Positions 39,972-57,293 are shown, counted from the first letter of the stretch. The stretch: DNA of 64,000 nt from an uncultured Gammaproteobacteria bacterium (GCA_964609775.1 CAZSSJ010000002.1:19260-83259), one strand, 5' to 3'. Translations and numbers: made by a program. The notes: generated from the letters alone by a model not told the origin.

Positions 39972-39972
39972 C

Positions 39973-41022: not shown

Positions 41023-42100
41023 CTTTGTCATCACCGTCTTTGTCATTTGGCGCCTGGCGATGTTTCTCCTTGGCCTGCCGGGGTTTTCCATCCTGACCTT
41101 CAAAGCCAGCTTCCCCAAAATTGACGAGATGCTCATCGCCTCTGGCTTTCCTCAGTGGCTGTGGCAGTGGGGAAACTTCGACGGCGTGCACTATCTGGAC
41201 ATTGCCCAAAACGGCTATCACGGCTCTGGGCTCCAGGTCTTTTTCCCCGTCTTTCCGCTCCTGATAAAACTGGGCAGTTTCCTTACCGGCAACTACTTTC
41301 TCTCCGGTCTGGTGATCTCCAATTTGGCCATTTTGCTTGCGGGCATAACTTTATTTCAGCTTGTCAGCCGTGACTTCGACAACAAAACAGCCCGTTGGGC
41401 GGTCATCTTTTTGTTCGCCTTTCCCACTTCATTTTTCTTCGGCAGCGTCTATACCGAGTCGCTCTTTCTTCTTTTTCTCTTGCTCACTTTTCTCAAAACC
41501 GGCTGGCTTTCCGGGCTTTTCTCTTTTCTTGCCGGTGGAACCAGGTTAGTCGGAGCTTTTCTTACTCCGGTGCTGGTCGCTTTTCGACCAAGAAACTGGT
41601 GGGGGATTCTTGCTGGAGGCGGCATCGGACTTTATATCTCCTACTTAACACTAACTTTCGGCAATCCGTTCTATTTTCTAACCGGCCAAGGAGCCTTCAA
41701 AAACGCCAGGGCCAATTCTCTTGAGTCCTTAGTCCTTCCTCCGCAAGTGCTTTACCGTTACATCAAAATCTTAACCACCGCGAGTCCTGCCCACTATGAC
41801 TATTGGATTGCCGCACTCGAGTTGGCTGCTTTCATCTTTGGCCTCATCATAGTGCTTTACTTAACACTCAGGAAAAAAATGCCCGCTCCCTACCTCATTT
41901 TTTCCTTCCTGGCGCTTCTCCTCCCTAGCTTTTCCGGCACTCTGTCATCCATGCCCCGCTATCTATTGTCAATTTTCCCGATCTTTATCGGTTTAGCTAT
42001 AATCAAAAATAACTCTGTTAAAGTTGGCATCGTGACGCTTTTTACACTATTATTAGCCGCATTGACAATCCTTTTTACCCGAGGCTACTGGGTCAGTTGA
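40994..42100 (+). CDS. PIG-V / GPI-mannosyltransferase-2-like (GT76-like) membrane glycosyltransferase
   Basis: WQWGNFDGVHYLDIAQNGYHGSGLQVFFPVFPLLIKL: a W-D-x-x-Y-x-x-IA-x-x-GY…FFP block typical of Mannosyl_trans2; 8-10 TM helices. Confidence 0.4.
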   Translation, partial: SMRKFLKTNSFVITVFVIWRLAMFLLGLPGFSILTFKASFPKIDEMLIASGFPQWLWQWGNFDGVHYLDIAQNGYHGSGLQVFFPVFPLLIKLGSFLTGNYFLSGLVISNLAILLAGITLFQLVSRDFDNKTARWAVIFLFAFPTSFFFGSVYTESLFLLFLLLTFLKTGWLSGLFSFLAGGTRLVGAFLTPVLVAFRPRNWWGILAGGGIGLYISYLTLTFGNPFYFLTGQGAFKNARANSLESLVLPPQVLYRYIKILTTASPAHYDYWIAALELAAFIFGLIIVLYLTLRKKMPAPYLIFSFLALLLPSFSGTLSSMPRYLLSIFPIFIGLAIIKNNSVKVGIVTLFTLLLAALTILFTRGYWVS

Positions 42101-42103
42101 CAC

Positions 42104-42784
42104 GTGCCAAAAATCCTAGTTGTCATCCCTGCTTTTAATGAACAAGCTACCTTGCTCTCCGTCCTATCCGACGTGTTAAAGAACATCCCGGCTGATGTAC
42201 TTGTCGTCAACGACGGGTCTTCTGATTCGACTAAAGATATAGCGCTTAAAAACAATGTCTTTGTGGTCTCCCACGTCGCCAACCGCGGTCTTGGCGCGGC
42301 CTTGGGAACCGGTTTTGAGTTTGCCAGGAAAAGAGATTATGACATTTTGGTCACTTTCGACGCGGATGGTCAACACACTTCGAAAGACGCCTTAAAACTC
42401 ATCCGGACAATCGACAAGGGGAGAGCAGATGTGGCTATCGGCAGCCGGCTTTTGACCAAAACTGCGATGCCTTTGGATCGAAAAGTGCTCAACTATCTGA
42501 GCGACCTGTTAACCTATATTTTCTATGGTGTCTGGACAACAGACTCCCAGTCCGGTCTGCGGGCTTTTAATAAGGAGGCAATTTCAGAAATTAAAATTAT
42601 GACTGACCGCATGGAGGTCAGCAGTGAATTTTTTAGAGAGATAAAACGCAATCATTTAACTTTTAAAGAAGTCGCCATTCAGGCAATCTACACTGATTAT
42701 AGTTTGTCAAAAGGCCAGGACAAAAAGGGTAATTGGAATGCTTTGTCGATTGGAGTTAAAATGCTCTTAAGGCTTTTTTCCTAA
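42104..42784 (+). CDS. GT2, polyprenyl-phosphate sugar synthase-like (soluble; GTG start)
   Basis: KILVVIPAFNEQATLLSVL…VLVVNDGSSDSTKDIA…VTFDADGQHTSKDALKLI. Confidence 0.7.
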   Translation: MPKILVVIPAFNEQATLLSVLSDVLKNIPADVLVVNDGSSDSTKDIALKNNVFVVSHVANRGLGAALGTGFEFARKRDYDILVTFDADGQHTSKDALKLIRTIDKGRADVAIGSRLLTKTAMPLDRKVLNYLSDLLTYIFYGVWTTDSQSGLRAFNKEAISEIKIMTDRMEVSSEFFREIKRNHLTFKEVAIQAIYTDYSLSKGQDKKGNWNALSIGVKMLLRLFS

Positions 42785-43129
42785 GTGACACTAATTCAAT
42801 TGCTACTATCGATCTTTCTGCTCTTTGCTCTCAGCCGGGTGATATTGCGCTTCCGTGGCGGCCAACTCTCACCCTTAGAATTCGCCTTTTGGTCGATCCT
42901 CTTCGTGGCAGCAATTTTTGGAATTTTTCTCCCCGAGCAAACGTCGCAACTGGCTAAAATATTAGGAATTGGTCGAGGAGCAGACCTGGTCGTTTATGTC
43001 TCAATTGTAATCATTTTCTACCTTGTTTTTAGACTCTATATTATGATCGAGAATCTCCGTCACGAAATAACCGAGATTGTCAGAAAAATAGCTCTGGAAA
43101 ATGTCATCAAATCGAAAACAAAAAAGTAA
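42785..43129 (+). CDS. DUF2304-like small membrane protein (GTG start), a GT2 partner
   Basis: 114 aa; two or three TM helices followed by an amphipathic C-terminus (…IMIENLRHEITEIVRKIALENV); sits directly after a GT2, the typical DUF2304 context. Confidence 0.4.
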   Translation: MTLIQLLLSIFLLFALSRVILRFRGGQLSPLEFAFWSILFVAAIFGIFLPEQTSQLAKILGIGRGADLVVYVSIVIIFYLVFRLYIMIENLRHEITEIVRKIALENVIKSKTKK

Positions 43130-44235
43130 TGAAAATTTTGTGGATCACTGAGTTTTTCCCCGCAACTTCGGCCGGAGAAATAACGGGGGGAGTTGAAGCG
43201 CGCTGTTTTTATGTCAGCCGATACCTTAAAAAGAGGGGAGTAGAACTAGAAGTCATTACCCGTCCCACCGGAGGAGAAACATGGTATCATGCTTCCCTCT
43301 CTTCAATCCCCAATAGGATCCTTTTTACCCTCAAAGCGATCATTAAAGGACTTGGAACTGACTTTGATCTGGTCGAGGGCTCGAACTCCGCCACCTATCC
43401 AGTTGCTGCCCTTTTGGGACTCCTTAAAAGAAAGCCAATCGTTTTTTGGTACCCCGACGTCTTCCAAGGAAGTTGGGTCGCCAAAGTGGGTTTAGTGGGC
43501 ATTCTTGGTAATATCTCAGACTGGATACTTTTCAAGATGCCAAACGTTCACTACATTGCCATCAGCCAGACAACGAAGCGTAAGCTCATGTCTAAGGGCG
43601 TAAGCGAGCTTAAAATTACCGTTATCTATTGTGGCATTGAACCAAAGGAGATATCCGCAATTAAAACTAATGGTCAGAAGACCACCCTCTCAGCCGTCAG
43701 CCGCTTAGTTGCCTATAAACACCTCGACGAGTTGATTAAAGCCGGGCAAATTCTCGTCCAAAAGCATCCCGACCTCAGCGTTAGCATTATTGGCCAAGGG
43801 CCGGAGGAACAAAAGTTAAAAAACCTGGCCAAAAGAATCGGGGTGGCAAAAAATATCAATTTTTTGGGATTTGTTAAAGACCACAAAGACGTTCTCGGAG
43901 TGGTCAATAAGTCCCAAGTTTTTGTGCACCCCTCGACTGTAGAAGGCTTTGGCATTGCTTTAATGGAGGCGGCAGCGCTGGGCGTTCCCTATGTTGCCGC
44001 TCGTCTTCCTATAGTCACGGAAGTGACTCGGACTGGCCAAGGAGGACTGCTGTTTGCAGCCGGAAATCACCACGATTTAGCTTCGAAAATTGACCAGCTC
44101 TTAACCTCTCGAAAGTTATATTTAACCAAGGCCAAACAAGCTGCTGCCCTCGCCGCCCACTACTCTTGGCATGAAGCCGCAAAGCAAACAGAGCGTCTTT
44201 ACAGGAAACGTGTCCAGAACAAAGCGATAGCATGA
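43129..44235 (+). CDS. GT4 glycosyltransferase
   Basis: …VFVHPSTVEGFGIALMEAAALGVPYVAARLPIVTEV…. Confidence 0.7.
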   Translation: MKILWITEFFPATSAGEITGGVEARCFYVSRYLKKRGVELEVITRPTGGETWYHASLSSIPNRILFTLKAIIKGLGTDFDLVEGSNSATYPVAALLGLLKRKPIVFWYPDVFQGSWVAKVGLVGILGNISDWILFKMPNVHYIAISQTTKRKLMSKGVSELKITVIYCGIEPKEISAIKTNGQKTTLSAVSRLVAYKHLDELIKAGQILVQKHPDLSVSIIGQGPEEQKLKNLAKRIGVAKNINFLGFVKDHKDVLGVVNKSQVFVHPSTVEGFGIALMEAAALGVPYVAARLPIVTEVTRTGQGGLLFAAGNHHDLASKIDQLLTSRKLYLTKAKQAAALAAHYSWHEAAKQTERLYRKRVQNKAIA

Positions 44236-45302
44236 AAGTGGATACGGATATGAAAATAGTAATTCTCACTGATGCTTGGACACCAATTTGGGGCGGTGGC
44301 CAAAAACATATTTGGGAGGTTTCTAAACGTTTAACTACTAATTACGATTGTCAAATAGATATTCTAGTCCCCAATCTTGTCAACGACGGTAAAACTCACC
44401 CGGATGAGGAAAAGTATTTTTCTGACAAATTGGTTATTCGCCGGTTGGGCAAGCCATTCGTTTTTCCTGATATCTTTGGCCGGAGTTTGTTTCTCCTCTT
44501 CTGCTTATCTTGGCCACTGACCCACGATTATGACATCATCCACGCCCACGCCTATCAATTTGTCCTCTTCCCGTTGTTAAGACTACTTCGTCCTCGCACT
44601 AAGCTTGTCTACACTCTCCACGGCGCCGGGGTCAACTTGCTCGGTGGCGCAGTCCTAAACACCTTCAAAATTCCCAAGTTAATCTGGGAGTTTTTTGTTC
44701 ATCACTTCCCTTATGATCTGTTGACGACAGTTGCCAAAAGCACCATCATCGCTCCTGTAGCTGCCAAAAAACTGGCCGTTGTCCCTAACGGTGTCGATAC
44801 CACATTGTTCGATAAGTTTAAGGAGCATAAGGATCCCCACAAGTTTAAGATTCTTTGGGTGGGGAGAATTGCCGATCCCGTCAAGGGCGTCAAGTATCTT
44901 GAGGAAGCAGTGGAGGAAATACAGCGCACTGATCCTAGAGTCAAGCTATCTTTAGTCACAAACAAATTTGGGGACGATTTGATAAAAGAATATAAATCAA
45001 GTGACTTGTTCGTTTTGCCATCCCTATCAGAAGGGCTACCATTAACTCTTCTTGAGGCGATGGCCGCCAAATTGCCCGTTGTGGTCACCGATGTTGGTGA
45101 TTGTAAAATGATTGTCAACTCAGCCCATTGCGGTGAAGTCGTCCCGCCAGCAAGCTCTTCTTCACTCGCGGCCGCAATCTTCAGAATGATTGACAGCAAG
45201 GATCGTCAAAAACTCGGTCTAAACGGTTACAATTTTGTCAAGGGGCACTACCTTTGGGACGAAATCGCCTCGAAGATCTACAGGGCATATCAAAATGTTT
45301 AA
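44232..45302 (+). CDS. GT4 glycosyltransferase
   Basis: …LFVLPSLSEGLPLTLLEAMAAKLPVVVTDVGDCKMIV…. Confidence 0.7.
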   Translation: MKVDTDMKIVILTDAWTPIWGGGQKHIWEVSKRLTTNYDCQIDILVPNLVNDGKTHPDEEKYFSDKLVIRRLGKPFVFPDIFGRSLFLLFCLSWPLTHDYDIIHAHAYQFVLFPLLRLLRPRTKLVYTLHGAGVNLLGGAVLNTFKIPKLIWEFFVHHFPYDLLTTVAKSTIIAPVAAKKLAVVPNGVDTTLFDKFKEHKDPHKFKILWVGRIADPVKGVKYLEEAVEEIQRTDPRVKLSLVTNKFGDDLIKEYKSSDLFVLPSLSEGLPLTLLEAMAAKLPVVVTDVGDCKMIVNSAHCGEVVPPASSSSLAAAIFRMIDSKDRQKLGLNGYNFVKGHYLWDEIASKIYRAYQNV

Positions 45303-46365
45303 AATTTTCTCGGCCGGCCTTGCCATTATTTTGATTCTTTTTGGTCTTCCCAACCTGGAATCCAAAAACATTACCAAAGCCAAACTGCTCATTGCCGACG
45401 TTTCTAAGGAGCCAGAACTCGAAACCTACACAACGGATATGAAAGCCTATCTACGAACTTATTACCAACTTAGGGCGGGCAAACCATATTATGAATCTCT
45501 TGGCAAGTCAGTCGTTGGTGATGCCACCAGAGACAATCTTCCCGGTGAAATCTGGGGTTGGAAACTACCGTTTATTTTTTATTTTTGGTCACTTTTACCA
45601 GGACCATCGGGAGTAGGTGTCTATGTCATTTTTATTTTTCTTCTCAGCGCCACCCTTTTTGCAAGTTTTAAGCTTTCCCAAAGAATAATTGGCAAATATG
45701 CACTTTTCTCTCCCTATCTTTTGGTTGGTTATTTTATTTTGCCATTGACAGAAATAACCATATTTCAGGTAGAATGGTGGGCCGTCTGCTTTTTCATCAT
45801 CGCCCTTGCGTTTTTGGTTTATGACAGAAAACTTTTTGCTGGAATGTTCTTTATGACTTCAATTTTCACTCGTGAACTTTTTGTCTTCCACCTAGCGATG
45901 CTCGCCCTTGTGTGTTTCCTTCTTCGAAGACGCCGCTATTTGTTGCCTCTTGTCATTCCACCCATACTCCTTATTCTCTTCTATTCATTCTATCACTTAG
46001 GCCAGGTCTATAGGTTCGAAAATTTCGGCCCGCTGACCACCTGGTGGCGCCAAGGCATCGATCGGGGCTGGCACCTTGTTAGACCAACGTTGAGTTTTTC
46101 CTCGCAGAACTATTTTTTCTTTTTTCTTCATCCTTTCAGGTTCTTTCTGCTCTTTGCTACAATTGGCCTACTAAGTCTTCTTATCAAAAATAAAGACAAG
46201 CTGTTGCCACTTTTGGCCCTTTTCTCCTTCCTGCCTTTTTTCTTGTTTATTTTTTTCTTCGGCATCCAAACAAAATGGCAGGATTACTGGGGAATATATT
46301 ATTTGCCGCTAGCCATTATTTTCGCACCAACCATTTTAACTTTGTTTCCCTATGCCAAAAAATGA
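45295..46365 (+). CDS. hypothetical polytopic membrane protein
   Basis: At least 8 hydrophobic helices; GEIWGWKLPFIFYFWSLLPG…; I recognise no family. Confidence 0.4.
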   Translation: MFKIFSAGLAIILILFGLPNLESKNITKAKLLIADVSKEPELETYTTDMKAYLRTYYQLRAGKPYYESLGKSVVGDATRDNLPGEIWGWKLPFIFYFWSLLPGPSGVGVYVIFIFLLSATLFASFKLSQRIIGKYALFSPYLLVGYFILPLTEITIFQVEWWAVCFFIIALAFLVYDRKLFAGMFFMTSIFTRELFVFHLAMLALVCFLLRRRRYLLPLVIPPILLILFYSFYHLGQVYRFENFGPLTTWWRQGIDRGWHLVRPTLSFSSQNYFFFFLHPFRFFLLFATIGLLSLLIKNKDKLLPLLALFSFLPFFLFIFFFGIQTKWQDYWGIYYLPLAIIFAPTILTLFPYAKK

Positions 46366-47593
46366 CTTTGCCCCACTTTTTTTAATACTTCTTTCATCAA
46401 TAATGCTTCTATATCAAGTGGCTAAGCCGTTTTGGGGCCATCATGATTTTAATAATGCTTTCTACGGCAACATGGCTCGAAATCTTGTCAGATTTTCAAT
46501 TCTTGATACCAAGCTGGCACAGGTGACCAGTTCTGGAAGACCTTCGGTGTCTGATTTTTCCTTCCATACCCATCACCCCCCATTGCTCATCTGGGCCCTG
46601 GGGGTGTCATATCTACTATTCGGGGTCACGGAATTGTCTACTCGTCTAGTTCCGATTGCCTTTTCCGTCGGCACACTTTTTACTTTTTATATGTTGATAA
46701 AAAAAACCGTCAACTCAAAAACCGCCGTCATTGCCTCCTTCTTTTGGATCGTTACCCCGCTCTATATCTATTTTGGCAAGATGGCCGTTCAGGAAATTCC
46801 GGTGCTGTTTTTCGTCTTGCTCGGACTGTATTCATATGCCGCAGGAAAGGTCAAACTCCTCTATTTTTCCACCTTCTTGGCCGCTCTTTCCGGCTGGCCG
46901 GGCTACTATTTAATCCCCACAATTTGGCTCTGGTCACTACTTCGGACTGGCAAAATCGCTAAAAACATAACTGCTTTGCCAATTGTCGCCATCGGTGTTT
47001 TTGCTTTCCATCTTTTCCAAAACCATGTCGTGACCGGCAGCACCATCGGCGGGGGATTCCTCAACTCTTTCGTCCTGCGAAGCTCTGACATTCCCCTTTT
47101 CGAATACGCAAGAAAGGAACTCAGTTGGATCTTGGCCTATTTTACAAAACCGTTCGTCACACTCGCCGCCGGAGGTTTAATCATCAGCCTTATCCATAGA
47201 AAAGCGTTAATTTTGGTTCTTTTTTTCTTCGGAATCCTTCATCTGATTTTTTTTCGCCAGGCAGCTTTTCGCCACGACTATCTGATTTATTATCTTCTCC
47301 CTGCCGTCTCACTGGGGGCAGCGCTCTTTTTAACCCACATGATAAGAAATAAATTCTTCCTTACTTCCACCACTCTTTTGATCATCGCCTTTTCACTGTC
47401 CCTGAGCTTTCGGTTCACCGGTGCCCTTCAGGGAAGCAATTATGGTCGAATCGCCGTGCAGGCCGGCAAAAACATCGCCACCAAAACCTCTCCGAACGAA
47501 AGGGTAACGCTAATAAATAAAGAAATATATAATAATTTCGACTGGCAGGTCAGATTCTACGCTGATCGCAACGTCACCATTATCCCTGAATGA
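46352..47593 (+). CDS. ArnT/GT83-like (GT39-like) membrane glycosyltransferase
   Basis: FWGHHDFNNAFYGNMARNL…SFHTHHPPLLIWALGVSYLLFGVTELSTRLVPIAFSVGTLFTFYMLIKK: an ArnT-type N-terminal region. Confidence 0.5.
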   Translation: MPKNDFAPLFLILLSSIMLLYQVAKPFWGHHDFNNAFYGNMARNLVRFSILDTKLAQVTSSGRPSVSDFSFHTHHPPLLIWALGVSYLLFGVTELSTRLVPIAFSVGTLFTFYMLIKKTVNSKTAVIASFFWIVTPLYIYFGKMAVQEIPVLFFVLLGLYSYAAGKVKLLYFSTFLAALSGWPGYYLIPTIWLWSLLRTGKIAKNITALPIVAIGVFAFHLFQNHVVTGSTIGGGFLNSFVLRSSDIPLFEYARKELSWILAYFTKPFVTLAAGGLIISLIHRKALILVLFFFGILHLIFFRQAAFRHDYLIYYLLPAVSLGAALFLTHMIRNKFFLTSTTLLIIAFSLSLSFRFTGALQGSNYGRIAVQAGKNIATKTSPNERVTLINKEIYNNFDWQVRFYADRNVTIIPE

Positions 47594-48354
47594 AAGCTGA
47601 TATCACCGTTTTGATGAGCGTGTACAACAACGAACGAACCGTTGGCAAGAGCATAGAAAGTATCCTGTGGCAAACCTATCCGCACTTTGTTTTTGTCATT
47701 ATTAATGACGGTTCGACTGACAATTCATCAAGCCAGATAAGGAAATTCAGTGACAAAAGAATAGTATATATAGACAAAAATAAAAATCTGGGCCTCACCA
47801 GAAGGCTTAACGAGCAACTGGATAATGTAAGTACTCATTATGTCGCTCGAATGGATGCCGATGACATTAGCCGTCCAGACCGCCTGGAGAAACAGCACAA
47901 CTTTATGACCACTCACCAAAGCTACGGGGCCGTCGGCAGCAATTTTAAAAGAGTCAATGCCCAAGGAAGTCTTCTGTGGGAAAGTGATTTCCCTCTTTCC
48001 TCAAAAGACATCAGGCAAAGAATTCTTTTGAAAAATCCCTTCAAGCACTCGATTCTCTTTTTTCGAACGGAAATTCTTAAAACATTGGGGGGATACAACG
48101 AAAAGTTTAAATATAGCCAGGACTACGACCTAATGCTCCGTCTGACTGCCAAATATCCTGTCGCCAATCTAAAGGAATGCTTACTCGTTGACAATCACCT
48201 TGACTCTGCCCTTTCCCAAACCCACCGTTTTGACCAAGCCAAATTTGCCACCTTGGCCCAAATAAATGCTCTCAGGCGGGGAGACTATCCGCTCTTTCAA
48301 AGCGTTTTCTTGTTTCGTTCTTTGGGGTATCTTTTTAAATCATGGTTAAGTTAG
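47590..48354 (+). CDS. glycosyltransferase family 2
   Basis: ITVLMSVYNNERTVGKSIESILWQTYPHFVFVIINDGSTDNS…ARMDADDISRPDRL. Confidence 0.65.
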   Translation: MKADITVLMSVYNNERTVGKSIESILWQTYPHFVFVIINDGSTDNSSSQIRKFSDKRIVYIDKNKNLGLTRRLNEQLDNVSTHYVARMDADDISRPDRLEKQHNFMTTHQSYGAVGSNFKRVNAQGSLLWESDFPLSSKDIRQRILLKNPFKHSILFFRTEILKTLGGYNEKFKYSQDYDLMLRLTAKYPVANLKECLLVDNHLDSALSQTHRFDQAKFATLAQINALRRGDYPLFQSVFLFRSLGYLFKSWLS

Positions 48355-49349
48355 TCAATTACGAACTTGAGTCCATTCCCGTCCCCTTTCGCCTCTCCTG
48401 GGGCAAACTGGGCTATTCCCGGCATGTCTATGTGACTGTCGAAAACGAAAAGGGGGCAAAGGGTCGGGGCGAAGGGGTGCTGTACAAAACCACGCATCTA
48501 GAACTACTGCCATATCTTGAGAATAGATTTACTCTCGATTTGGAGAGACTAGCCGCCTTCGAACCAGCGCTTGCCTTTGCCGTAGACACCGCTCATCTTG
48601 ACCTAAAAGGGAAAATTTTAGTCGTGCCGCCTAACCCCTCTGTCGTTCGCGAAATCTTTATGGAAGACCAGGATCTGGAACAATCTGTCAAAGAGATAGC
48701 AACTCAACACACAAGCGCGATTAAACTAAAAGTCGGGGCGGGAGTAGAGAATGACAAAAAGACCCTTGTTCAGGTTCACCACCTCACCAAGGGCAAGATC
48801 AAAATTCACCTCGACGCCAATCGGGCATATAATTTAAAAGACGCCTTAGAGTTGGCCAGTTTTGCCAGCGCTAGGGGAGTGACTCTTTTTGAGGAACCGG
48901 TCTCTGGAGGCTTTCCTATCGTCGGAGAATTTAAACGGGCATCCAATCTGCCGGTGATGCTTGATGAAAGCATCCAGTCTGCGGCCGATCTGGAAAGTGC
49001 CATTAGAGAAAAATGCTTCGACATCCTAAATATTAAACTCAGCCGGCTGGGCGGTATAACCTTAGCCCAAAGGTACGTTCAGCGCTGCACTCAAGCCGGG
49101 CTAAGAATCTATCTTGGCTGTAGTGAAGAGCTAGAAACGGGCACCCGAGCAATTTTCACTTTGGCAAAATCAACAAAAAATCTTTATGCGGTTGAGGGGC
49201 TGGGCTTCGAAAGATTAGCCGGTCGGGAGGGCTTCCACTACAGTCTTGGAGAAGGTAGTCGGCGACTCTTTTTACTCAAAGAGTTTTCTGGTCTTTGGGC
49301 CACCAGAATTGAAAATTGCCTTAATTACACACTAGCGAAGATAAGGTAA
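48342..49349 (+). CDS. enolase-superfamily enzyme (mandelate racemase / muconate lactonizing / dipeptide-epimerase or OSBS-like)
   Basis: The canonical ligand set sits in order: K-x-K (IKLKVG), metal D (HLDANRAYN), E (LFEEP), D (MLDES); about 335 aa. Confidence 0.55.
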   Translation: MVKLVNYELESIPVPFRLSWGKLGYSRHVYVTVENEKGAKGRGEGVLYKTTHLELLPYLENRFTLDLERLAAFEPALAFAVDTAHLDLKGKILVVPPNPSVVREIFMEDQDLEQSVKEIATQHTSAIKLKVGAGVENDKKTLVQVHHLTKGKIKIHLDANRAYNLKDALELASFASARGVTLFEEPVSGGFPIVGEFKRASNLPVMLDESIQSAADLESAIREKCFDILNIKLSRLGGITLAQRYVQRCTQAGLRIYLGCSEELETGTRAIFTLAKSTKNLYAVEGLGFERLAGREGFHYSLGEGSRRLFLLKEFSGLWATRIENCLNYTLAKIR

Positions 49350-49355
49350 AAACCT

Positions 49356-50591
49356 ATGCGCATCTGTTCGCCACAACTAGGGATTTCTCCGGACTCAAAT
49401 CTTGGCGGCGAGGTCCACGATCGCGAAATGCTCAAATCCCTAGCAGACTTGGGGGTGGAGATCGACATCATTCTTCCTTTTGGAAAGAAGCACGAAGCTC
49501 ACAAAAATTGGCACTTTTATTATTTACTAACCCCAATAGTCTTTCCGCCAATAGTTTTCAACGCTCTAGTCTTACCCCATCTCTTTTGGATTTACTTTCG
49601 GCATAAATTCAATATTCTCCGCGTCCATTCTCCCTACTTCGTCGGGCTAGGAGCTTTGATTTTCAAATTGGTTTTTCCACGGATTTTAGTCATTGCCCAC
49701 TATCACCATTTTGAAGGCAATAAGGTTTATAATTTGATAGATAGCATTATCGCCAACAAGTTCGATTTAATCGTCACTGCTAGCAATGTGACTAAAAGCA
49801 AGTTAATAAACAAATTTGGCGTTTTGGAATCTAAAATTGCAATCATTCCCTACGGAGTATCTGCTAGCTTTGCTCCGCAAATTGTCGACCAACAAATTAT
49901 TCTTGAACCTGCGAATACCTCGTTGCTCTGCAGCGAGGATGAGCAGGCTCCAAGAAGAAACTCCGAGCCCAAGATACCTCGTCAGCCCTTCAGGTCTGAG
50001 CCTCAGGGTCGAAGACTTGCTGCGATGAGTTTCATTTCCAAGTATAAACTTCATGGAAAGAAACCGCTTCTTTATATTGGTCAGTTAATCAGTCGCAAAA
50101 ACATCCCCTTTCTACTTCAAGTAGTAAAGGCGCTACCTGAAGAATATATACTTTTGATCGCCGGTGATGGGCCATTAAAAAATCAACTACAAGACATGGT
50201 AAGGTCCTTACAACTAGATAACCGGGTGACATTTTGCGGTCATATTTCAGAAGAAGAAAAGCCGAAAATGATTTCCCTTGCCGATTTTTTTCTTTTTTCT
50301 TCAAGCAATGAAGGATTCGGACTATCAGTGTTAGAAGCAATGGCCTGCGGCAAAATTGTTATTGCCGCAAAACTTCCCGTCTTTCAACAGTTTATTGACA
50401 CCGGCAGAAACGGATTTCTTTTGGATCTTGATTCCCAGCGATGGGTGAAGACTATTTTATCTTTGGACCATAAACCACAGACCAAACGGTCTTTAGAAAA
50501 AAACGCCAGACAAAGTGCAAAAAAATTTAGCTGGAACAACTTTGCCAAAACCTATCTTCGTCGAGTAAATCATTCATTTCCTAGCCTATGA
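49356..50591 (+). CDS. GT4 glycosyltransferase with a low-complexity inter-domain insert
   Basis: …FFLFSSSNEGFGLSVLEAMACGKIVIAAKLPVFQQFI…; a Pro/Arg/Ser/Glu-rich linker lies around nt 49900..50040. Confidence 0.6.
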   Translation: MRICSPQLGISPDSNLGGEVHDREMLKSLADLGVEIDIILPFGKKHEAHKNWHFYYLLTPIVFPPIVFNALVLPHLFWIYFRHKFNILRVHSPYFVGLGALIFKLVFPRILVIAHYHHFEGNKVYNLIDSIIANKFDLIVTASNVTKSKLINKFGVLESKIAIIPYGVSASFAPQIVDQQIILEPANTSLLCSEDEQAPRRNSEPKIPRQPFRSEPQGRRLAAMSFISKYKLHGKKPLLYIGQLISRKNIPFLLQVVKALPEEYILLIAGDGPLKNQLQDMVRSLQLDNRVTFCGHISEEEKPKMISLADFFLFSSSNEGFGLSVLEAMACGKIVIAAKLPVFQQFIDTGRNGFLLDLDSQRWVKTILSLDHKPQTKRSLEKNARQSAKKFSWNNFAKTYLRRVNHSFPSL

Positions 50592-51367
50592 CAGTCACCA
50601 AGCTTTCTATAGTGCTACTTAAAAAATTGCGGCAAGCAACTCCACTTGCAGCAAAGCTCGTTTTTCTAACAGGGAAATCAACGCAAGCCCTTCACCCGAA
50701 GCACCTCGTCGAAATCGAAAAGCCTTGGTATCTTGATTATCTTTCAAAGAACGATATTGTTCTCGACCTCGGCTGTGGCAACGGTCAAAATTCCCTCAAG
50801 GCAGCCAAGAAGGCCAAACATGTATACGGACTCGACACAAACCAGGCCAGTCTTAATCAAGGAAGATCCTTCGCTAGTCGACACAAGATCACTAATATTA
50901 CCTTCTCATTTCATGATTTGAACAACAAGCTGCTCTACCCCGACCAACGTTTCGACCGAGTACTATTCCTGGATGTCCTAGAACACCTAGGGACCGCCAG
51001 TCGCCAGCAGATAATGGGCGAAATTCACCGGATTCTGAGAACCGATGGCCTGCTGCTCCTAGCCGTCCCTAATAGTCAAACATCTTGGAAAAAGACGCAA
51101 AGGTCTGTAAGCGTGGACTCATTTACCGATCCAGACCATAAAATTGAATATTCGCTTGACGGGATCAAAAAATTTTGTAGTAAATGTAAGTTTAAACAAT
51201 TAAATATTAGTGGTATTACTTATGACAGCCCTTATGCTCCCTTAATTGACATTGCTGGAGGATTTTCACTGCAGCTGTATAAAAAGCTATCACTTTGGAA
51301 AAAAAATAAGATGAAAGGTGGCTTAACTGAAAGTATCGGTTTCAGATTAGTTTGTCAAAAAATGTAG
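50588..51367 (+). CDS. class I SAM-dependent methyltransferase
   Basis: IVLDLGCGNGQNSLKAAKKAKHVYGLD…RVLFLDVLEHL…ILRTDGLLLLAVPN. Confidence 0.7.
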   Translation: MTVTKLSIVLLKKLRQATPLAAKLVFLTGKSTQALHPKHLVEIEKPWYLDYLSKNDIVLDLGCGNGQNSLKAAKKAKHVYGLDTNQASLNQGRSFASRHKITNITFSFHDLNNKLLYPDQRFDRVLFLDVLEHLGTASRQQIMGEIHRILRTDGLLLLAVPNSQTSWKKTQRSVSVDSFTDPDHKIEYSLDGIKKFCSKCKFKQLNISGITYDSPYAPLIDIAGGFSLQLYKKLSLWKKNKMKGGLTESIGFRLVCQKM

Positions 51368-51379
51368 CGCCATCTGATA

Positions 51380-52555
51380 ATGAAAATCGCATATATCGTA
51401 GACTATCTACCAAACTTAGATTCCAGGACAGATTTCAGTGGAGCAGAGGTCAGTGTCCAGCTGTTAGCGGCGGGTTTAAAAAAACACGGGGTCGAGATCA
51501 AGTTAGTTTCACCTGCCCAAGGTTTATATTCTTCACGAGGAAAAGTCTTTCCCTCTTTGCTGACAACAAATATTTTCTGGTTTTTTCTTTCCACTTTAAT
51601 AATTATCAGAAGCCTTCAGAGGGAAGAGATTGACTTGATTCACGCTCAGGGAAAGAACTCCCTAGTAGGAGCTTACTTGAGTAGTCTTTTTTTTAAAAAG
51701 CAACTTTTAGTTACCGTTAGGGACTATCGAGCCCTTTGTGACTTGGGTATGTGTTTTCTTCGGGGCAAGAAACACTGTACTTTCAAAAACTACTTTCAGC
51801 AGGACATTCCGTTTTTCGTCAGAAAATACAAGAAACAGACAGTTTTAAGATATCTCTATGCCTATCTTGTCGGGCTATACCAATATCCTCTTCGCCTTCT
51901 TTATCGTCATATTCTAAAAAAAGCTAATAAAGTCGTTTGTATCAGCATTGCCCAACAGAAGTTATACAATACATTTGGCATTGATAACACAATAGTAATT
52001 TATAACCCAGTGACTTTTGAAAAAGTCCACTATCAAAAGAAAAAACAATTATTTTTCGGCGGCAGATACACACTTGGCAAAGGAAAGGAAATTTTAAAAA
52101 TCATCCTTCCAAAATTCTTTCAACTTTATCCAGATTGGGAACTTATCTTTGCTGGTCGTGACAAGCTGGATATCGAACATCGAAACATCAGAACCCTTGG
52201 CCAATTGCCTTACAAGAGCTATCTAAGGTCAGTCGGGGAGTCATCCCTAGCGCTTGTTCCCTCTGTCTGGCCGGAGCCCTTCGGAAGGGCAGCGCTGGAC
52301 GCAATCTCTGTTGGGACACCGGTAGTTGCGACAAATGCTGGCGCCCTATCTGAAATAGTAGTTAGTGGCCGCTACGGAACCGTAAGTCAACCAAATACGC
52401 AAAGTTATTGGCAAGCCCTCCAAGAGGGAATGGCAAAAAGGAGCGGTCTTTCTGAACAGATCAAAAAAGACACCGAAAAATTGATCAAAAAATTTCAGGT
52501 CGATCCAGTTCAAGATCACCTCAGACTATATGAATCGTCACTACACAAATCTTGA
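51380..52555 (+). CDS. GT4 glycosyltransferase
   Basis: …LALVPSVWPEPFGRAALDAISVGTPVVATNAGALSEIV…. Confidence 0.65.
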   Translation: MKIAYIVDYLPNLDSRTDFSGAEVSVQLLAAGLKKHGVEIKLVSPAQGLYSSRGKVFPSLLTTNIFWFFLSTLIIIRSLQREEIDLIHAQGKNSLVGAYLSSLFFKKQLLVTVRDYRALCDLGMCFLRGKKHCTFKNYFQQDIPFFVRKYKKQTVLRYLYAYLVGLYQYPLRLLYRHILKKANKVVCISIAQQKLYNTFGIDNTIVIYNPVTFEKVHYQKKKQLFFGGRYTLGKGKEILKIILPKFFQLYPDWELIFAGRDKLDIEHRNIRTLGQLPYKSYLRSVGESSLALVPSVWPEPFGRAALDAISVGTPVVATNAGALSEIVVSGRYGTVSQPNTQSYWQALQEGMAKRSGLSEQIKKDTEKLIKKFQVDPVQDHLRLYESSLHKS

Positions 52556-53150
52556 CTATCTATCGCGCTCGCGATGGGCTAGCTTTTACGTCCAAATTAA
52601 AGAAACCGTCAATCCCAAACCTGCCAACGTACTTGAAATCTGTAAGGGTTTCGGGCTCTTGTCTTTTGTCGTCAGAGGCATAGGAACAGACATTAAAACT
52701 TTAGATGTTGACCCTAAATTAAAGCCCGATTTTATTGGAGACGTACGTAGAATTCCCCTCAAAGCCAATTCTTTCGACGTTGTCACTTGTTTTCAAGTTC
52801 TTGAGCATCTTCCTTTTTCCGATTTCAAAATTGCCCTTTTGCAAATGAAACGAGTAAGTAAAAAATATATTCTTCTCTTTCTACCTGAACCCTATAGCAC
52901 CTTTGTCTATTTTGGCGCCAAGTTGATCCCGTTCATTCCTAAGCTTGAATTATTCCGAAAATTTGCTATGTCTGACCGATTTTTTCCGAAATTCGGGCTG
53001 AACAGTCCTCATTATTGGGAAATTGGAAGAAAAGGTGTTTCCTACCAAAAAGTTGAAAAATGTATCACAGCGTGCCAATTAAAAATTATTAAATCCTTTT
53101 ATCCGAAAGAAAACTTATATCACCACGTTTTCGTTTTGTCTAAATTATGA
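52530..53150 (+). CDS. class I SAM-dependent methyltransferase
   Basis: …PANVLEICKGFGLLSFVVRGIGTDIKTLDVD…FDVVTCFQVLEHLPFSDFKIALLQMKRV…. Confidence 0.55.
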   Translation: MNRHYTNLDYLSRSRWASFYVQIKETVNPKPANVLEICKGFGLLSFVVRGIGTDIKTLDVDPKLKPDFIGDVRRIPLKANSFDVVTCFQVLEHLPFSDFKIALLQMKRVSKKYILLFLPEPYSTFVYFGAKLIPFIPKLELFRKFAMSDRFFPKFGLNSPHYWEIGRKGVSYQKVEKCITACQLKIIKSFYPKENLYHHVFVLSKL

Positions 53151-54190
53151 CACTTGGAATTCTTTTGCCGATGGGGAGCAGCCTTGAAGACATGGAGCTT
53201 CATGGCCAAAAGGAACGTTTCCAAAAATACTACCTCAATGTCTATAGACAGAGCTTTGAAAAAGTTATTGTCTTTAGCTATAAGGACTCTCCCCTTCATC
53301 GCTACTTCTATTCCCTAGCTCTCCCGTTAGTCAAGCGCAAAGATTTCACCACATGCGACGTCTTCCGATGCTTTCATTTAAGTTCCACGCCCCCGGCCAT
53401 TGTCGGGAAAATTCTATTTAACAAAAAGTTCGTCTTCAATTACAACTATGATTATAAAAAATGGGCGGTTATCGAAAAAAAACCCTTCCTGGTTCCATTG
53501 ATTCAACTTTTAGAGCAGGTAAGTTTTAGGTTGGCAAACCATATTTTTGTCGCCGACGAAAGAATGGCCGAATTTGCCAGAACGCTCAGAAGTGCAACAA
53601 AAATTACGAACATCCCCAACGGCGTGGACGTCACCATCTTTAGGCCAGCATTGCATAACAAAAAAAACAGCCAAAAAGTTATCCTTTCTGTAGGTCGGCT
53701 AGAAGAGCAAAAAAACTATGGGCAGCTTATCGCTGCCGTTGCCAACATTAGCCCAAAACCACATTTAATCATCATTGGTCGGGGAGCTTTAAAGGAGACT
53801 TTAGTTAGGCAAGCAGGTCGATTGGCAGTGGATATGACAATTATTGATGTGGTCCCCCACCTAGAGTTGCCAAAATATTATCAATCTGCTGATGTTTATG
53901 TTCAACCCTCCTTAGCGGAGGCTCCGGTAAAAACTCTTCTCGAAGCAATGAGCTGCCAATGTGCTTGTGTAGGGACCAGGGTTCCTGGCATTTCGGGAGT
54001 CTTAGAAGATGGAAAAAATGGATTGCTAGCCTCCTTAGAAACGAAAGATCTTCAGAAAAAGATTCAACAGGTTTTAAATAATCCAAAAACGGCAAAAAAA
54101 CTAGGGGAGCAAGCCAGAGTGACAATCATCAACCGCTTCAATATCAAAAAAATGATTAACAAAGAAATCTCCATTCTGAAAAGCATATGA
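53147..54190 (+). CDS. GT4 glycosyltransferase
   Basis: …ILSVGRLEEQKNYGQLIAAV…YVQPSLAEAPVKTLLEAMSCQCACVGTRVPGISGVL…. Confidence 0.7.
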   Translation: MTLGILLPMGSSLEDMELHGQKERFQKYYLNVYRQSFEKVIVFSYKDSPLHRYFYSLALPLVKRKDFTTCDVFRCFHLSSTPPAIVGKILFNKKFVFNYNYDYKKWAVIEKKPFLVPLIQLLEQVSFRLANHIFVADERMAEFARTLRSATKITNIPNGVDVTIFRPALHNKKNSQKVILSVGRLEEQKNYGQLIAAVANISPKPHLIIIGRGALKETLVRQAGRLAVDMTIIDVVPHLELPKYYQSADVYVQPSLAEAPVKTLLEAMSCQCACVGTRVPGISGVLEDGKNGLLASLETKDLQKKIQQVLNNPKTAKKLGEQARVTIINRFNIKKMINKEISILKSI

Positions 54191-55242
54191 CAGTCTGCTA
54201 TTTTGGCTACTACCGACCCTTTCATTCTAGAAATCGCAACCTCATACTTGGTTTACGGAGAAATGGTGTTAACGTAATTGAATGCAATGCTGTAGTGCCG
54301 TTTATTCAAGGAAGATACTTTTGTCTTCTTGCAAAATACTTCCGCTATGGCACAGGGGCGGATGTGATTATTGTTGGTTTTCCTGGGCACACAGATGTGC
54401 CCCTTGCCTGGGCTTTAGCGAAAATTTTTCACCGAAAGTTAGTTTTTGACGCTTTTACTTCTATGTATTTAAACCTTGTGTATGACCGCCAGGATGTTGC
54501 TCAACATTCTTTGAAGGCTTTAGTCTACTGGCTAGTCGACTGGTTAAGTTGCCTGCTATCAGATAAAGTTCTGGTCGATACTTCCGATAACCAACAATAT
54601 TTTGCTAAAGAGTTTTCTGTTAAGGTGGATAAAATTGCCTGTATTCCTGTATGTTTTGACGAAAGTATTTTTAAACCGCAAAAAGCGATTAATGGTGATA
54701 GTTGTATCGTCGGTTGGCACGGCACTTTCCTCCCGCTTCAGGGGGTGGAGACTATTATCGCAGCAGCGCAAAAACTTAAGAACGTGAATATAAATTTTCG
54801 CCTTTTAGGCTACGGGCGAGAGAAAGACATGAGTGTTAAATTAGTAAAAAAGAAGGGCTTGAAAAATATTTATTTTTTTGATCGAGTAAATTACCAACGC
54901 CTGCCAGATTTTATCAGTGGCTGTGATATTTATCTTGGAGGACCGTTTGGCCAGAATTTAAAGGCCAACATGGTTATACCAAATAAGGTAGTAGAGGCAA
55001 TGGCCATGGGCAAGCCGGTAATTTGTGCTGACACACCTGCCATGCGGCGAGCTTTTGTTTCGGGAAAAGAAGTTTTGTTAACAACACAAAGTAATCAGCT
55101 TGCTTTAGCTAGGGCGATAATAAGTCTGAAGGAAAGCCCCAAGCTACGCGAAACCCTGGGTCATAACGCACTAAGGGCTGCTTCTTTCTATACTAGCAAG
55201 AATATTGGTCGCTTATTACTTCAAAAAATCGCCCAGCTATAA
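54187..55242 (+). CDS. glycosyltransferase, GT4/GT1-like
   Basis: The C-terminal domain …VVEAMAMGKPVICADTPAMRRAFVSGKEVLL is a retaining-GT-like nucleotide-sugar-binding block. Confidence 0.5.
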   Translation: MTVCYFGYYRPFHSRNRNLILGLRRNGVNVIECNAVVPFIQGRYFCLLAKYFRYGTGADVIIVGFPGHTDVPLAWALAKIFHRKLVFDAFTSMYLNLVYDRQDVAQHSLKALVYWLVDWLSCLLSDKVLVDTSDNQQYFAKEFSVKVDKIACIPVCFDESIFKPQKAINGDSCIVGWHGTFLPLQGVETIIAAAQKLKNVNINFRLLGYGREKDMSVKLVKKKGLKNIYFFDRVNYQRLPDFISGCDIYLGGPFGQNLKANMVIPNKVVEAMAMGKPVICADTPAMRRAFVSGKEVLLTTQSNQLALARAIISLKESPKLRETLGHNALRAASFYTSKNIGRLLLQKIAQL

Positions 55243-55256
55243 TATACTTTCTAAAG

Positions 55257-56462
55257 ATGCGTAAGATAGGTTATCTAGAGGGGTTAAGAGGCATCGCTGC
55301 GTTCATTGTCGTCCTTAATCATTTTGCCGTATCCTTTTTCCCGGCATTGTATAACGGAAAGATAACCCAGGCTCATACCTTATCCTGGCTAGAATCGGCT
55401 ATCGCTAGTAGCCCTATTAATTTTTTTTATAATGGCAACTTTGCCGTCGCTGTTTTCTTTGTTCTTAGCGGCTTTGTCCTCTCATACAACTATTTCAAAA
55501 CTCTACGTGTAGAGGTAATTGTGTCCGGAGCAATTAAACGATATTTCCGGCTAGTGATTCCGGTTGCCTTTACTGTCCTGTTGGCCTACTTATTCATGAA
55601 ATTTTCATTTTTCTTTAACAAACAGGCCGGAGAGATAAGTTATTCGACTTGGTGGCTATCAAGATATTGGGAATTTGATACCAATCTAATAGATGTTTTA
55701 AATACCGCATTTATTAGAGTGCTCTTTTTTGGTGATGTTAGATTTAATCACATATTGTGGACGATGCGTTATGAGTTTTTTGGATCCATAATTGTATTCA
55801 CGACGTTATTTATCTTTCGACAAAGAAGGTATCGATATGCGGCTTATATCATTCTTAGTTTATGGTTTTTAAGGTCATACTATCTTCCATTTATCCTTGG
55901 TTTGGTTCTCTCCGACCTATATAGTCTTAAAAGATACACAGTTAAACTAAATAAAGATTTAAAAAGAATTTGTCTTCTATTGCTGGGATTTGTTGGTTTA
56001 TATTTAAGTTCCTGTCCCAGTGGAGCCCCAATAAGAAATACAATCTATGCCCCCTTGTTTATCTTGGATCGTTATCCCTACACCTTTTATCACATCTTAG
56101 GGGCTTTAATGCTCATGATTACTCTTTTAAATTGGACAGCGCTGCAAAACTTATTTTCAAACAGACTATTTATCTTTTTGGGCAGAATATCGTTTTCTAT
56201 GTATTTGCTTCATTTGATAGTGATTGGTTCCTTATCCAGTCTACTGTTAATTATTTTGACTCACTATTTTACCTATCCTGTTGCAGCTATGCTCGTCTTT
56301 GTGATATCGATGCCGGTCTTAGTATTTACCTCCTATTTAATGTACGTGCTGGTGGATAGTAAGGGTACCATCCTATCTAAAATTATTTGTCGTTGGCTCA
56401 CTGGGTCAATCAGGCGGCAACAATTCGCCAACCAGTTTGTCCTTGGTGGCAAAAAATCATAA
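55257..56462 (+). CDS. acyltransferase family 3 (membrane O-acyltransferase)
   Basis: MRKIGYLEGLRGIAAFIVVLNHFAVSFFPALYNG… is the canonical Acyl_transf_3 N-terminus; about 10 TM helices. Confidence 0.7.
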   Translation: MRKIGYLEGLRGIAAFIVVLNHFAVSFFPALYNGKITQAHTLSWLESAIASSPINFFYNGNFAVAVFFVLSGFVLSYNYFKTLRVEVIVSGAIKRYFRLVIPVAFTVLLAYLFMKFSFFFNKQAGEISYSTWWLSRYWEFDTNLIDVLNTAFIRVLFFGDVRFNHILWTMRYEFFGSIIVFTTLFIFRQRRYRYAAYIILSLWFLRSYYLPFILGLVLSDLYSLKRYTVKLNKDLKRICLLLLGFVGLYLSSCPSGAPIRNTIYAPLFILDRYPYTFYHILGALMLMITLLNWTALQNLFSNRLFIFLGRISFSMYLLHLIVIGSLSSLLLIILTHYFTYPVAAMLVFVISMPVLVFTSYLMYVLVDSKGTILSKIICRWLTGSIRRQQFANQFVLGGKKS

Positions 56463-56471
56463 AATAGATTT

Positions 56472-57284: not shown

Positions 57285-57293
57285 ACTTTTGCT

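What the first reader, a model, noticed from the sequence alone, without database searches (positions are those of the whole stretch)
48342..49349. An enolase-superfamily (MR/MLE) enzyme embedded in a glycosyltransferase operon
The KxK, D, E, D ligand set is intact. MR/MLE enzymes such as dipeptide epimerases, N-succinyl-amino-acid racemases and OSBS are not normal members of glycan loci. It may generate a D-amino-acid, an acid-sugar or a dehydrated sugar-acid substituent for the glycan.
Basis: partly seen in the sequence, partly recalled or inferred. Interest (0 to 1): 0.55.

Follow-up and report, generated by a model that had tools for sequence, protein, structure and literature searches.

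The report
Glycan-locus enolase-superfamily epimerase family
The gene is a real, catalytically intact enolase-superfamily enzyme of a rare, undescribed family that travels with, and is sometimes fused to, a specific glycosyltransferase and methyltransferase, so it probably flips the stereochemistry of an acidic building block of a cell-surface sugar polymer.

Summary
ORF 48342-49349 (+), 335 aa, is a genuine MLE-subgroup enolase-superfamily enzyme. K128-x-K130, D158, E184, D208 and K232 are intact, and the AF2 model has pLDDT 92. It is not OSBS: menB and menD were not found in a 97.6%-complete 1.08-Mb genome, and scores lie far below the MenC cut-offs. It is not a dipeptide epimerase: the D-x-D motif on strand 8 is replaced.

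It belongs to a rare clade of about 57 representatives among 1.84 billion proteins. The clade is defined by E285-G-x-G-x-x-R291, E262, R235, H28 and Y48.

In four phyla the family sits in glycan loci. In the window and 17 fetched loci its stop codon abuts the start of one orthologous BshA/MshA-like GT4 (window 49356-50591). An orthologous SAM methyltransferase (50588-51367) usually follows.

Natural fusions exist: MLE::methyltransferase (P0095, P0209) and MLE::GT4 (P0168). The same GT4-methyltransferase cassette also occurs without the MLE, including a related genome with the window's gene order minus this gene. The MLE is therefore an optional add-on, lying in the variable middle of an ABC-exported glycan locus.

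Best reading: a Mg2+-dependent two-base epimerase/racemase acting on a carboxylate-bearing glycan unit. The substrate is unknown.

The parts
48342..49349 (+). MLE-subgroup enolase-superfamily enzyme (P0001, 335 aa), member of a new glycan-associated family
48723..48731 (+). K128-x-K130 motif at the end of barrel strand 2 (first acid/base lysine)
   Evidence: invariant
48813..48965 (+). Mg2+ ligands D158, E184 and D208
   Evidence: invariant; aligned to the ligands of 3JVA and 2P88
49035..49046 (+). K232 (second base, strand 6) and R235 (equivalent of 'position 266', K+3)
   Evidence: criterion from bioRxiv 10.1101/2022.03.03.481873
49194..49214 (+). Family signature E285-G-L-G288-F-E-R291 on strand 8, in place of the D-x-D of dipeptide epimerases
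49356..50591 (+). Partner glycosyltransferase 'GT4p', BshA/MshA-like GT4; orthologue follows the MLE in most loci
50588..51367 (+). Partner SAM methyltransferase 'MTase1'; orthologous domain is fused to the MLE in P0095 and P0209
47590..48354 (+). GT2 immediately upstream; its orthologue precedes the MLE in the fetched loci whose gene content resembles the window's
45235..56462 (+). Variable central cassette of the locus (unknown membrane protein, GT-C, GT2, MLE, GT4p, MTase1, GT4, MTase, GT4, GT4, acyltransferase); replaced by other genes in the same-genus genome
56472..58574 (+). Wzm/Wzt ABC-2 exporter of the locus (conserved flank)

Best explanation
The gene encodes a cytoplasmic, Mg2+-dependent enolase-superfamily enzyme of the MLE subgroup. 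It belongs to a previously undescribed family specialised for glycoconjugate assembly. The inferred mechanism is as follows. The metal, held by D158, E184 and D208, stabilises the enolate of a substrate carboxylate. K130 and K232, on opposite faces, remove and return the alpha proton. This inverts the stereocentre next to the carboxylate (a 1,1-proton transfer: epimerase or racemase). The next enzymes then trap the epimer irreversibly. These are the BshA/MshA-like glycosyltransferase GT4p, whose start lies 6 nt after the MLE stop, and the sugar-O-methyltransferase-like MTase1. The substrate is inferred to be a carboxylate attached to, or about to be attached to, a sugar. Candidates are an alpha-glycosyloxy or alpha-hydroxy acid aglycone (as in GlcNAc-malate or glucosylglycerate), C5 of a hexuronate, or an amide-linked amino acid. 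The same GT4p-MTase1 cassette works in other genomes without the MLE. The MLE is therefore an optional stereochemical editing step that diversifies the glycan exported by Wzm/Wzt. Shown: the fold, the catalytic residues, family distinctness, synteny, fusions and optionality. Inferred: the reaction type, the substrate class and the order of steps.
For: The catalytic set is invariant and the fold is confident. With the family profile, the best solved relatives are racemases and epimerases: dipeptide epimerase 3JVA at 150 bits and N-succinyl-Arg/Lys racemase 2P88 at 143 bits. MenC structures score 55-73 bits. R235 occupies the K+3 'position 266' site. That site is needed for two-base racemisation and is missing in non-promiscuous OSBS. 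The family forms its own branch with the motif columns removed (SH-aLRT 93, enclosing branch 100). It separates bimodally from paralogues: at least 209 bits against at most 86 bits. Signature-positive members lie in glycan loci of the window's small-genome groundwater lineage, Chloroflexota, Gaiella and Verrucomicrobiales. The MLE stop and GT4p start are -4 to +6 nt apart in the window and in 17 loci. Fusions exist: P0095 and P0209 are MLE::MTase1, with the C-terminal part 43% identical to window 50588-51367 at E 1e-63; P0168 is MLE::GT4. GT4p resembles GT4s that use small anionic soluble acceptors. By profile, BshA scores 168 bits over the full length, whereas a control GT4 from the same cassette does not match it this way. 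By fold, the top matches are MshA, SPS, BshA and GlgM. MLE-less versions of the cassette exist, including GT2u-GT4p-MTase1-Wzm in G670. MLE-plus and MLE-less GT4p sequences interleave on a tree. The MLE lies in the variable middle of the locus when compared with the same-genus genome.
Against: No substrate is identified. Both lysines and a positive residue at position 266 are also kept by muconate cycloisomerases, so these features do not prove epimerase chemistry. No ligase for an amino-acid substituent is conserved near the gene. No UDP-sugar dehydrogenase lies in any of the loci fetched up to that search. The resemblance of GT4p to BshA is below family cut-off: 86 bits against 273.7. GT4p works without the MLE in other genomes, so the MLE cannot supply an indispensable precursor.
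Confidence: 0.55

Rival explanations
1. It is a one-base enzyme: an acid-sugar dehydratase, a cycloisomerase or a lyase-type beta-eliminase. It would make a deoxy-keto or unsaturated acidic sugar for the glycan, rather than an epimer.
For: The MLE subgroup contains dehydratases and cycloisomerases. The top Foldseek hit is the divergent galactarate dehydratase 3ES7. 3,6-anhydrogalactonate cycloisomerase and cis-3-hydroxyproline dehydratase also appear among the matches. Those enzymes keep both lysines too.
Against: Profile scores to racemases and epimerases are about twice those to the dehydratases: 150 and 143 bits against 83-84 bits. The closest outgroup on the tree is the D-x-D dipeptide epimerases. 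No reductase or aminotransferase that would process a keto-deoxy product is conserved beside the gene.
Confidence: 0.15
2. The MLE, GT4p and MTase1 make a soluble small molecule: a methylated glycosyl-acid comparable to a bacillithiol precursor or a glucosylglycerate-type solute. The module would merely be parked in glycan loci and would not contribute to the exported polymer.
For: The nearest structures to GT4p are BshA, MshA, SPS and GlgM, all makers of soluble glycosides. A PIG-L/LmbE deacetylase lies at 60277-60915.
Against: No BshC was found in the genome. The trio is followed by orthologous GT4c and GT4d extenders in both phyla. It sits between conserved glycan flanks and Wzm/Wzt. Loci in other phyla add Wzx flippases, GT-C enzymes or a WecA-like initiator.
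Confidence: 0.15
3. It is a house-keeping enzyme placed in the locus by accident: o-succinylbenzoate synthase, or L-Ala-D/L-Glu epimerase of murein recycling.
For: Language-model neighbours in the protein atlas are auto-named OSBS, and structural neighbours there are dipeptide epimerases. Weak NCBIfam hits exist to both.
Against: All NCBIfam equivalog scores are far below cut-off: AE epimerase 74 against 500, MenC 69 against 200. menB and menD were not found in a 97.6%-complete genome, while the controls were positive. The D-x-D motif is replaced in all 57 members. The gene was not found in 60 relatives or in 400 further genomes of the phylum. Synteny and fusions tie it to a GT4 and a methyltransferase.
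Confidence: 0.02
4. It is a non-catalytic scaffold or specificity subunit for GT4p or MTase1.
For: Tight gene coupling and fusions are also expected of structural partners. The capping domain and C-terminus are reduced in the window's short subclade.
Against: Every catalytic and metal-binding residue is invariant across about 57 diverged representatives. That pattern indicates selection for catalysis.
Confidence: 0.03

Closest known systems
Dipeptide epimerases of the MLE subgroup (L-Ala-D/L-Glu epimerase YkfB/YcjG; PDB 3JVA, 1TKK, 3IJQ, 2ZAD)
   Same: Same fold. KxK, D/E/D and the strand-6 lysine have the same spacing (K232 to E285 is 53 residues). A positive residue sits at K+3. These are the best profile match (150 bits) and the nearest outgroup on the tree.
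   Different: The strand-8 D-x-D is replaced by E-G-x-G-x-x-R. Family-specific residues are H28, Y48, E185 and E262, and R replaces K at K+3. The genomic context is glycosyltransferases and methyltransferases, not peptidases. NCBIfam scores are far below cut-off.
N-succinylamino-acid racemases (B. cereus N-succinyl-Arg/Lys racemase 2P88; NSAR/OSBS subfamily)
   Same: Glu at the strand-8 position and Arg at 'position 266'. Highest TM-score (0.76) and 143 bits over the full length.
   Different: No OSBS or NSAR pathway context. The family forms a separate clade. The capping-domain residues differ.
BshA (GlcNAc-L-malate synthase) with BshB, the first steps of bacillithiol synthesis
   Same: GT4p is most like BshA among solved structures over its full length. 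A PIG-L family gene lies in the locus. The logic of a GT4 acting on a small carboxylate acceptor is shared.
   Different: GT4p scores below the BshA family cut-off (86 against 273.7 bits). No BshC was found. The module is followed by further GT4s and an ABC exporter. BSH synthesis contains no enolase-superfamily enzyme.
Uronate C5-epimerases (AlgG/AlgE, heparosan Glce, archaeal Agl32)
   Same: The proposed chemistry is the same: removal and return of the proton alpha to a sugar carboxylate within a glycan pathway.
   Different: These have unrelated folds (beta-helix, Glce, and AGE superfamily for Agl32; PMC13308652) and do not use a metal in the enolase-superfamily manner. No uronate link is shown here.

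Membership tests
Enolase superfamily, MLE subgroup | KxK at the end of strand 2, a lysine at the end of strand 6, and D/E/D metal ligands on strands 3-5 | tested here: met
   K128, K130, D158, E184, D208 and K232 are invariant. They align to the same residues of 3JVA and 2P88.
Enolase superfamily, MLE subgroup | Capping domain plus modified TIM-barrel fold | tested here: met
   AF2 pLDDT 92. Foldseek gives probability 1.00 and TM 0.66-0.76 to more than 30 MLE-subgroup structures.
Dipeptide epimerase (L-Ala-D/L-Glu epimerase) | D-x-D at the end of strand 8, said from my own knowledge of the family to bind the dipeptide ammonium group. In one search the motif is present in 23 of the 30 sequences outside the family. 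| tested here: not met
   E285-G-L-G-x-x-R291 in the window; E-[GA]-x-G-x-x-R in all 57 family members.
Dipeptide epimerase (L-Ala-D/L-Glu epimerase) | NCBIfam equivalog score | tested here: not met
   NF041118 scores 73.8 bits against cut-off 500. NF011708 scores 29.9 against 343.
o-Succinylbenzoate synthase (MenC) | Equivalog score | tested here: not met
   TIGR01928 scores 69.5 against 200.65, and TIGR01927 scores 62.7 against 130.55.
o-Succinylbenzoate synthase (MenC) | Menaquinone pathway present in the genome | tested here: not met
   menB (TIGR01929) and menD (TIGR00173) were not found in the genome, which is 97.6% complete. Controls were positive.
Two-base racemases/epimerases of the MLE subgroup | Positively charged residue three positions after the strand-6 lysine ('position 266'). 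This is necessary but not sufficient. | tested here: met
   R235 in 56 of 57 members, K in the other. Criterion from bioRxiv 10.1101/2022.03.03.481873.
Two-base racemases/epimerases of the MLE subgroup | Demonstrated alpha-proton exchange or inversion of configuration | not testable with these tools
   Needs an enzyme assay.
Muconate/chloromuconate cycloisomerase | Subfamily score | tested here: not met
   TIGR02534 scores 70.7 against 334.95.
BshA (for the partner GT4p) | Equivalog score, and BshC in the genome | tested here: not met
   TIGR03999 scores 86.2 against 273.7. PF10079 was not found. BshA is nonetheless the best solved match by profile.

The most novel reading that the evidence does not exclude
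A previously unrecognised enolase-superfamily family acts as a stereo-inverting editor in glycoconjugate biosynthesis. With a BshA/MshA-like GT4 and an O-methyltransferase, to either of which it can be fused, it would build or epimerise a methylated glycosyl-carboxylate unit. That unit could be an acid aglycone or a C5-epimerised uronate. It would prime, cap or decorate an exported polysaccharide. The module is horizontally mobile and optional, and would diversify surface glycans in small-genome groundwater bacteria, Chloroflexota and other phyla. This would be the first enolase-superfamily enzyme with a biosynthetic role in glycan assembly.
Probability: 0.4. Interest if true: 0.75.

Novelty: new variant of a known kind. 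Interest (0 to 1): 0.62.

Why it matters
As far as I know, and as far as the held literature shows, enolase-superfamily enzymes are catabolic or cofactor-pathway enzymes. None is known as a dedicated component of glycan assembly (searches found none).

The family described here has several features that make it tractable. It has a clean sequence signature and a conserved three-gene module. It has two kinds of natural fusion. Natural cassettes exist with and without the gene. Together these give a ready-made experimental system for finding a new substrate class in a heavily studied superfamily.

The finding also points to an unknown acidic, stereochemically unusual constituent in the surface glycans of uncultured small-genome groundwater bacteria and Chloroflexota.

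Tried and rejected
The contexts of the closest Logan-only homologues (P0002-P0019) could therefore not be read. Context comes from the search for related loci and the genome search instead.
- **Complex prediction of MLE with GT4p** gave 'no answer', score 0.00. This is not evidence either way.
- **Sequencing runs:** no RNA holder is listed. The holders are groundwater and soil metagenomes.
- **PF26685**, which is precomputed on many family members, is not in the local Pfam copy, so its identity is unknown.
- **Word-index search for fused forms of 707 aa or more** found none. Fusions were instead found among the exhaustive-search hits.
- **UDP-glucose dehydrogenase as a link to uronates:**
  - There is one copy in the genome, on another contig.
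  - There is none in the window or in any locus fetched up to that search.
  - Within the taxonomic family only G000 and G002 have it.
  - The result is inconclusive.
- **A second MR_MLE_C hit in the genome** is the glycolytic enolase.
- **Literature searches** found no enolase-superfamily enzymes in O-antigen or EPS clusters. Agl32 is an AGE-fold enzyme and is unrelated.
- **BshA malate-binding residues** could not be checked, because PMC5954418 is not held.
- **An apparent 610-aa MLE-flippase ORF in L035** is an overlapping-frame artefact of my ORF caller. The MLE frame stops at 933.

Full report
**Observation.** The ORF at 48342-49349 (+) starts with ATG and encodes 335 aa.
- It matches Pfam MR_MLE_C at E 2e-27 and matches MR_MLE_N only weakly.
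All are invariant in 25 homologues.
- An AlphaFold2 model built on that alignment is confident (pLDDT 92, pTM 0.90). The flexible '20s loop' (residues 18-21) is the only poorly modelled part.
- Foldseek places the model among MLE-subgroup structures at TM 0.66-0.76.
- The gene overlaps the upstream GT2 by 13 nt. A GT4 follows after 6 nt, and a SAM methyltransferase overlaps that GT4 by 4 nt.
- The window from about 35 to 63 kb is one same-strand array. It holds GT4, GT2 and GT-C transferases, four methyltransferases, an Acyl_transf_3 protein, Wzm/Wzt and a PIG-L deacetylase.

**It is not a known family.**
- No NCBIfam equivalog is approached. The best scores are AE epimerase 74 bits against cut-off 500, MenC 69.5 against 200.65, and muconate cycloisomerase 70.7 against 335.
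- The genome is 1.08 Mb and 97.6% complete, and it comes from groundwater and soil metagenomes.
- menB and menD were not found in it, while the control genomes were positive.
- Its only other MR_MLE_C hit is the glycolytic enolase.

**A rare, distinct family.**
- A word-based search of 5.8 billion proteins found only about 25 close relatives, none of them named beyond generic labels.
- An exhaustive profile search of 1.84 billion cluster representatives found 207 proteins at E ≤ 1e-30.
- I aligned 87 of the top hits. Of these, 57 share a signature absent from the rest: E285-[G/A]-x-G288-x-x-R291 on strand 8, E262, R235, E/D185, H28, Y48 and S26.
- Of the other 30, 23 carry D-L-D-[S/G/A] at the strand-8 position, together with K at 235 and Q at 185. 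That is the dipeptide-epimerase pattern.
- The K232-to-E285 spacing of 53 residues equals the spacing from the catalytic lysine to the first Asp in B. subtilis YkfB. That comparison rests on my own knowledge of the family.
- In a maximum-likelihood tree with the motif columns removed, the 57 sequences lie on one side of a branch (SH-aLRT 93). That branch sits inside a branch with support 100.
- In genomes that hold both a family member and ordinary MLE paralogues, scores are bimodal: at least 209 bits against at most 86 bits.
- The family was not found in 60 relatives, including the same genus. It was found in 1 of 401 genomes of its phylum, namely the window's own genome. It was found in 3 of 401 genomes of the Anaerolineae class.
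- Those samples included two unpublished genomes (G410, G453). No positive claim rests on them.

**Reaction type.**
- With the family profile, the best solved relatives are dipeptide epimerase 3JVA (150 bits) and N-succinyl-Arg/Lys racemase 2P88 (143 bits, full length).
- Chloromuconate cycloisomerase scores 97 bits, the divergent galactarate dehydratase 83-84 bits, and MenC structures 55-73 bits.
[quoted passage not shown] It reports that the residue is absent from non-promiscuous OSBS. It also notes that MLE 1 and 2 keep it (bioRxiv 10.1101/2022.03.03.481873).
- In this family the position is R235, present in 56 of 57 members with K in the other.

This favours an epimerase or racemase but does not prove it.

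**Context survey.** I fetched 48 loci from GTDB genomes and JGI metagenomes. I compared their ORFs with the window's proteins.
- Signature-positive members occur in the window's own lineage and in fetched metagenome loci whose gene content closely resembles the window's. They also occur in Anaerolineae and Caldilineaceae, in a Gaiella MAG and in a Verrucomicrobiales MAG.
- In the window and 17 loci, some of them duplicates of the same population, the next gene is an orthologue of window GT4 49356-50591 ('GT4p'). It shares 30-46% identity at E 1e-54 to 1e-105. Its start lies -4 to +6 nt from the MLE stop.
- In L006, L024 and L037, GT4p lies elsewhere in the same locus.
- An orthologue of methyltransferase 50588-51367 ('MTase1', 35-46% identity) follows GT4p in L004, L005, L006, L027, L029 and L042.
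- Where GT4p is not adjacent, the neighbours are still glycan genes:
  - L024 has a DPM1-like GT2, an SDR and a DegT aminotransferase.
  - Gaiella has an SDR fusion.
  - Verrucomicrobiales has an FkbM methyltransferase, a GT and a WecA-like initiator.
  - L034 has GT2u and a methyltransferase.

**Fusions.** Among the exhaustive-search hits:
- P0095 (568 aa) carries the family signature. Its C-terminal domain is 43% identical over its whole length to window MTase1, at E 1e-63.
- P0209 (586 aa) comes from another data set, has diverged from P0095 and is fused in the same way. Its close relatives P0097 and P0207 (326 aa) end at the junction. The fusion is therefore not an assembly artefact.
- P0168 (730 aa) carries the signature EGWGAYR and is fused to a GT4. 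The best match of that GT4 in the window is GT4p.

These fusions, together with the abutting or overlapping stop and start codons, tie the three activities to one pathway step or intermediate.

**The partner enzymes.**
- A profile of twelve GT4p orthologues finds four independent BshA structures as its best full-length matches. 2JJM and 3MBO score 168 bits, and 5D00 scores 148.
- A control profile of another GT4 from the same cassette finds SPS, GlgM and PglA first. It matches BshA only through the nucleotide-binding half, at 95 bits.
- The AF2 model of GT4p (pLDDT 85.7) is closest to MshA, SPS, BshA, GlgM and the methylmannose-polysaccharide ManT. GT4s that act on lipid-linked acceptors (PglA, WaaG, PimB') rank lower.
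- MshA, SPS, BshA and GlgM all use small anionic soluble acceptors.
- GT4p is not a BshA orthologue. It scores 86 bits against a cut-off of 273.7, and no BshC was found.
- The best solved matches of MTase1 are the sugar O-methyltransferase RebM and a D-glucose O-methyltransferase. These matches cover the SAM-binding core only.

**The MLE is optional.**
- The same-genus genome G001 keeps the flanks of the locus, from GT2 39213 to GT4 44232 on one side and Wzm/Wzt on the other. Between them it carries a different central cassette with no MLE.
- GT4p orthologues occur without any family member in five Anaerolineae genomes. In G390 and G075 the cassette reads GT4p-MTase1-...-GT4c-GT4d with the MLE simply missing.
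- In the window's own phylum, G670 reads GT4-GT2u-GT4p-MTase1-Wzm. That is the window's gene order minus this gene.
- On a GT4p tree, MLE-plus and MLE-less rows interleave, and well-supported branches force at least three changes of state.

The MLE is therefore a gain-and-loss accessory. It modifies what the cassette makes. It does not supply an indispensable precursor.

**Interpretation.** The best-supported reading is a cytoplasmic, metal-dependent, two-base epimerase or racemase. It would act on a carbon next to a carboxylate in a unit handled by GT4p and MTase1, and the following irreversible steps would trap the epimer.
- The replacement of the ammonium-binding D-x-D by E...R, together with family-specific His, Tyr and Glu residues, would suit a sugar or anionic moiety in place of a peptide N-terminus. 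This is inference, because I had no model coordinates.
- The candidate substrates are listed in the best explanation. Nothing here discriminates between them.
- The main rivals are a one-base dehydratase or cycloisomerase, and a soluble-metabolite module that is not part of the polymer.

**Limits.** There is no biochemical evidence. The complex prediction gave no answer. No RNA data are listed.

Noticed in passing
window 49890-50003: The window's GT4p carries an insert of about 38-45 residues that is rich in P, R, S, Q and E. It is absent from all eleven orthologues and is modelled as disordered (pLDDT below 50).
   Followed up: partly
L064 (G000:C2:82000-99722), just beyond the window end: This stretch holds a cytidylyltransferase, a PhyH-type dioxygenase, a 630-aa NeuB fused to a xylose-isomerase-like TIM barrel, a Crp-family regulator, a KdsA-like DAHP_synth_1 protein and further GTs. 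The genome therefore has its own ulosonic-acid synthases next to the island.
   Followed up: partly
L062 (G001:C1:448000-466000) compared with window 39213-58574: The same-genus genome shares the flanks of the locus (44-65% protein identity) but swaps the central cassette. This is an O-antigen-like serotype architecture in a genome of about 1 Mb.
   Followed up: yes
L004:9866-12070: A 734-aa fusion of a GFO/IDH/MocA oxidoreductase with a shikimate-dehydrogenase-like domain lies in the Anaerolineales version of the cassette.
   Followed up: no
L027:6042-7226: A canonical MR_MLE paralogue (394 aa, full N- and C-terminal domains) lies 3 kb upstream of the family member in one metagenome contig.
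   Followed up: no
L008:2015-8122: In the Verrucomicrobiales locus, a 1026-aa DUF499/HEPN_Swt1 protein and a DDE transposase lie just upstream of the MTase-MLE-GT block. This suggests a mobile or defence-island neighbourhood.
   Followed up: no
G000:C36:3353-4687: The genome's only full-length UDP-sugar 6-dehydrogenase sits on a 5.7-kb contig. Within the taxonomic family, only this genome and G002 have one. In G002 it lies next to the glycan locus.
   Followed up: partly
window 45235-46365, 36082-37539, 59533-60258: Three ORFs of the island (376, 485 and 241 aa) have no Pfam family. The first has only a weak NCBIfam hit to a cell-surface glycopolymer formation protein.
   Followed up: no
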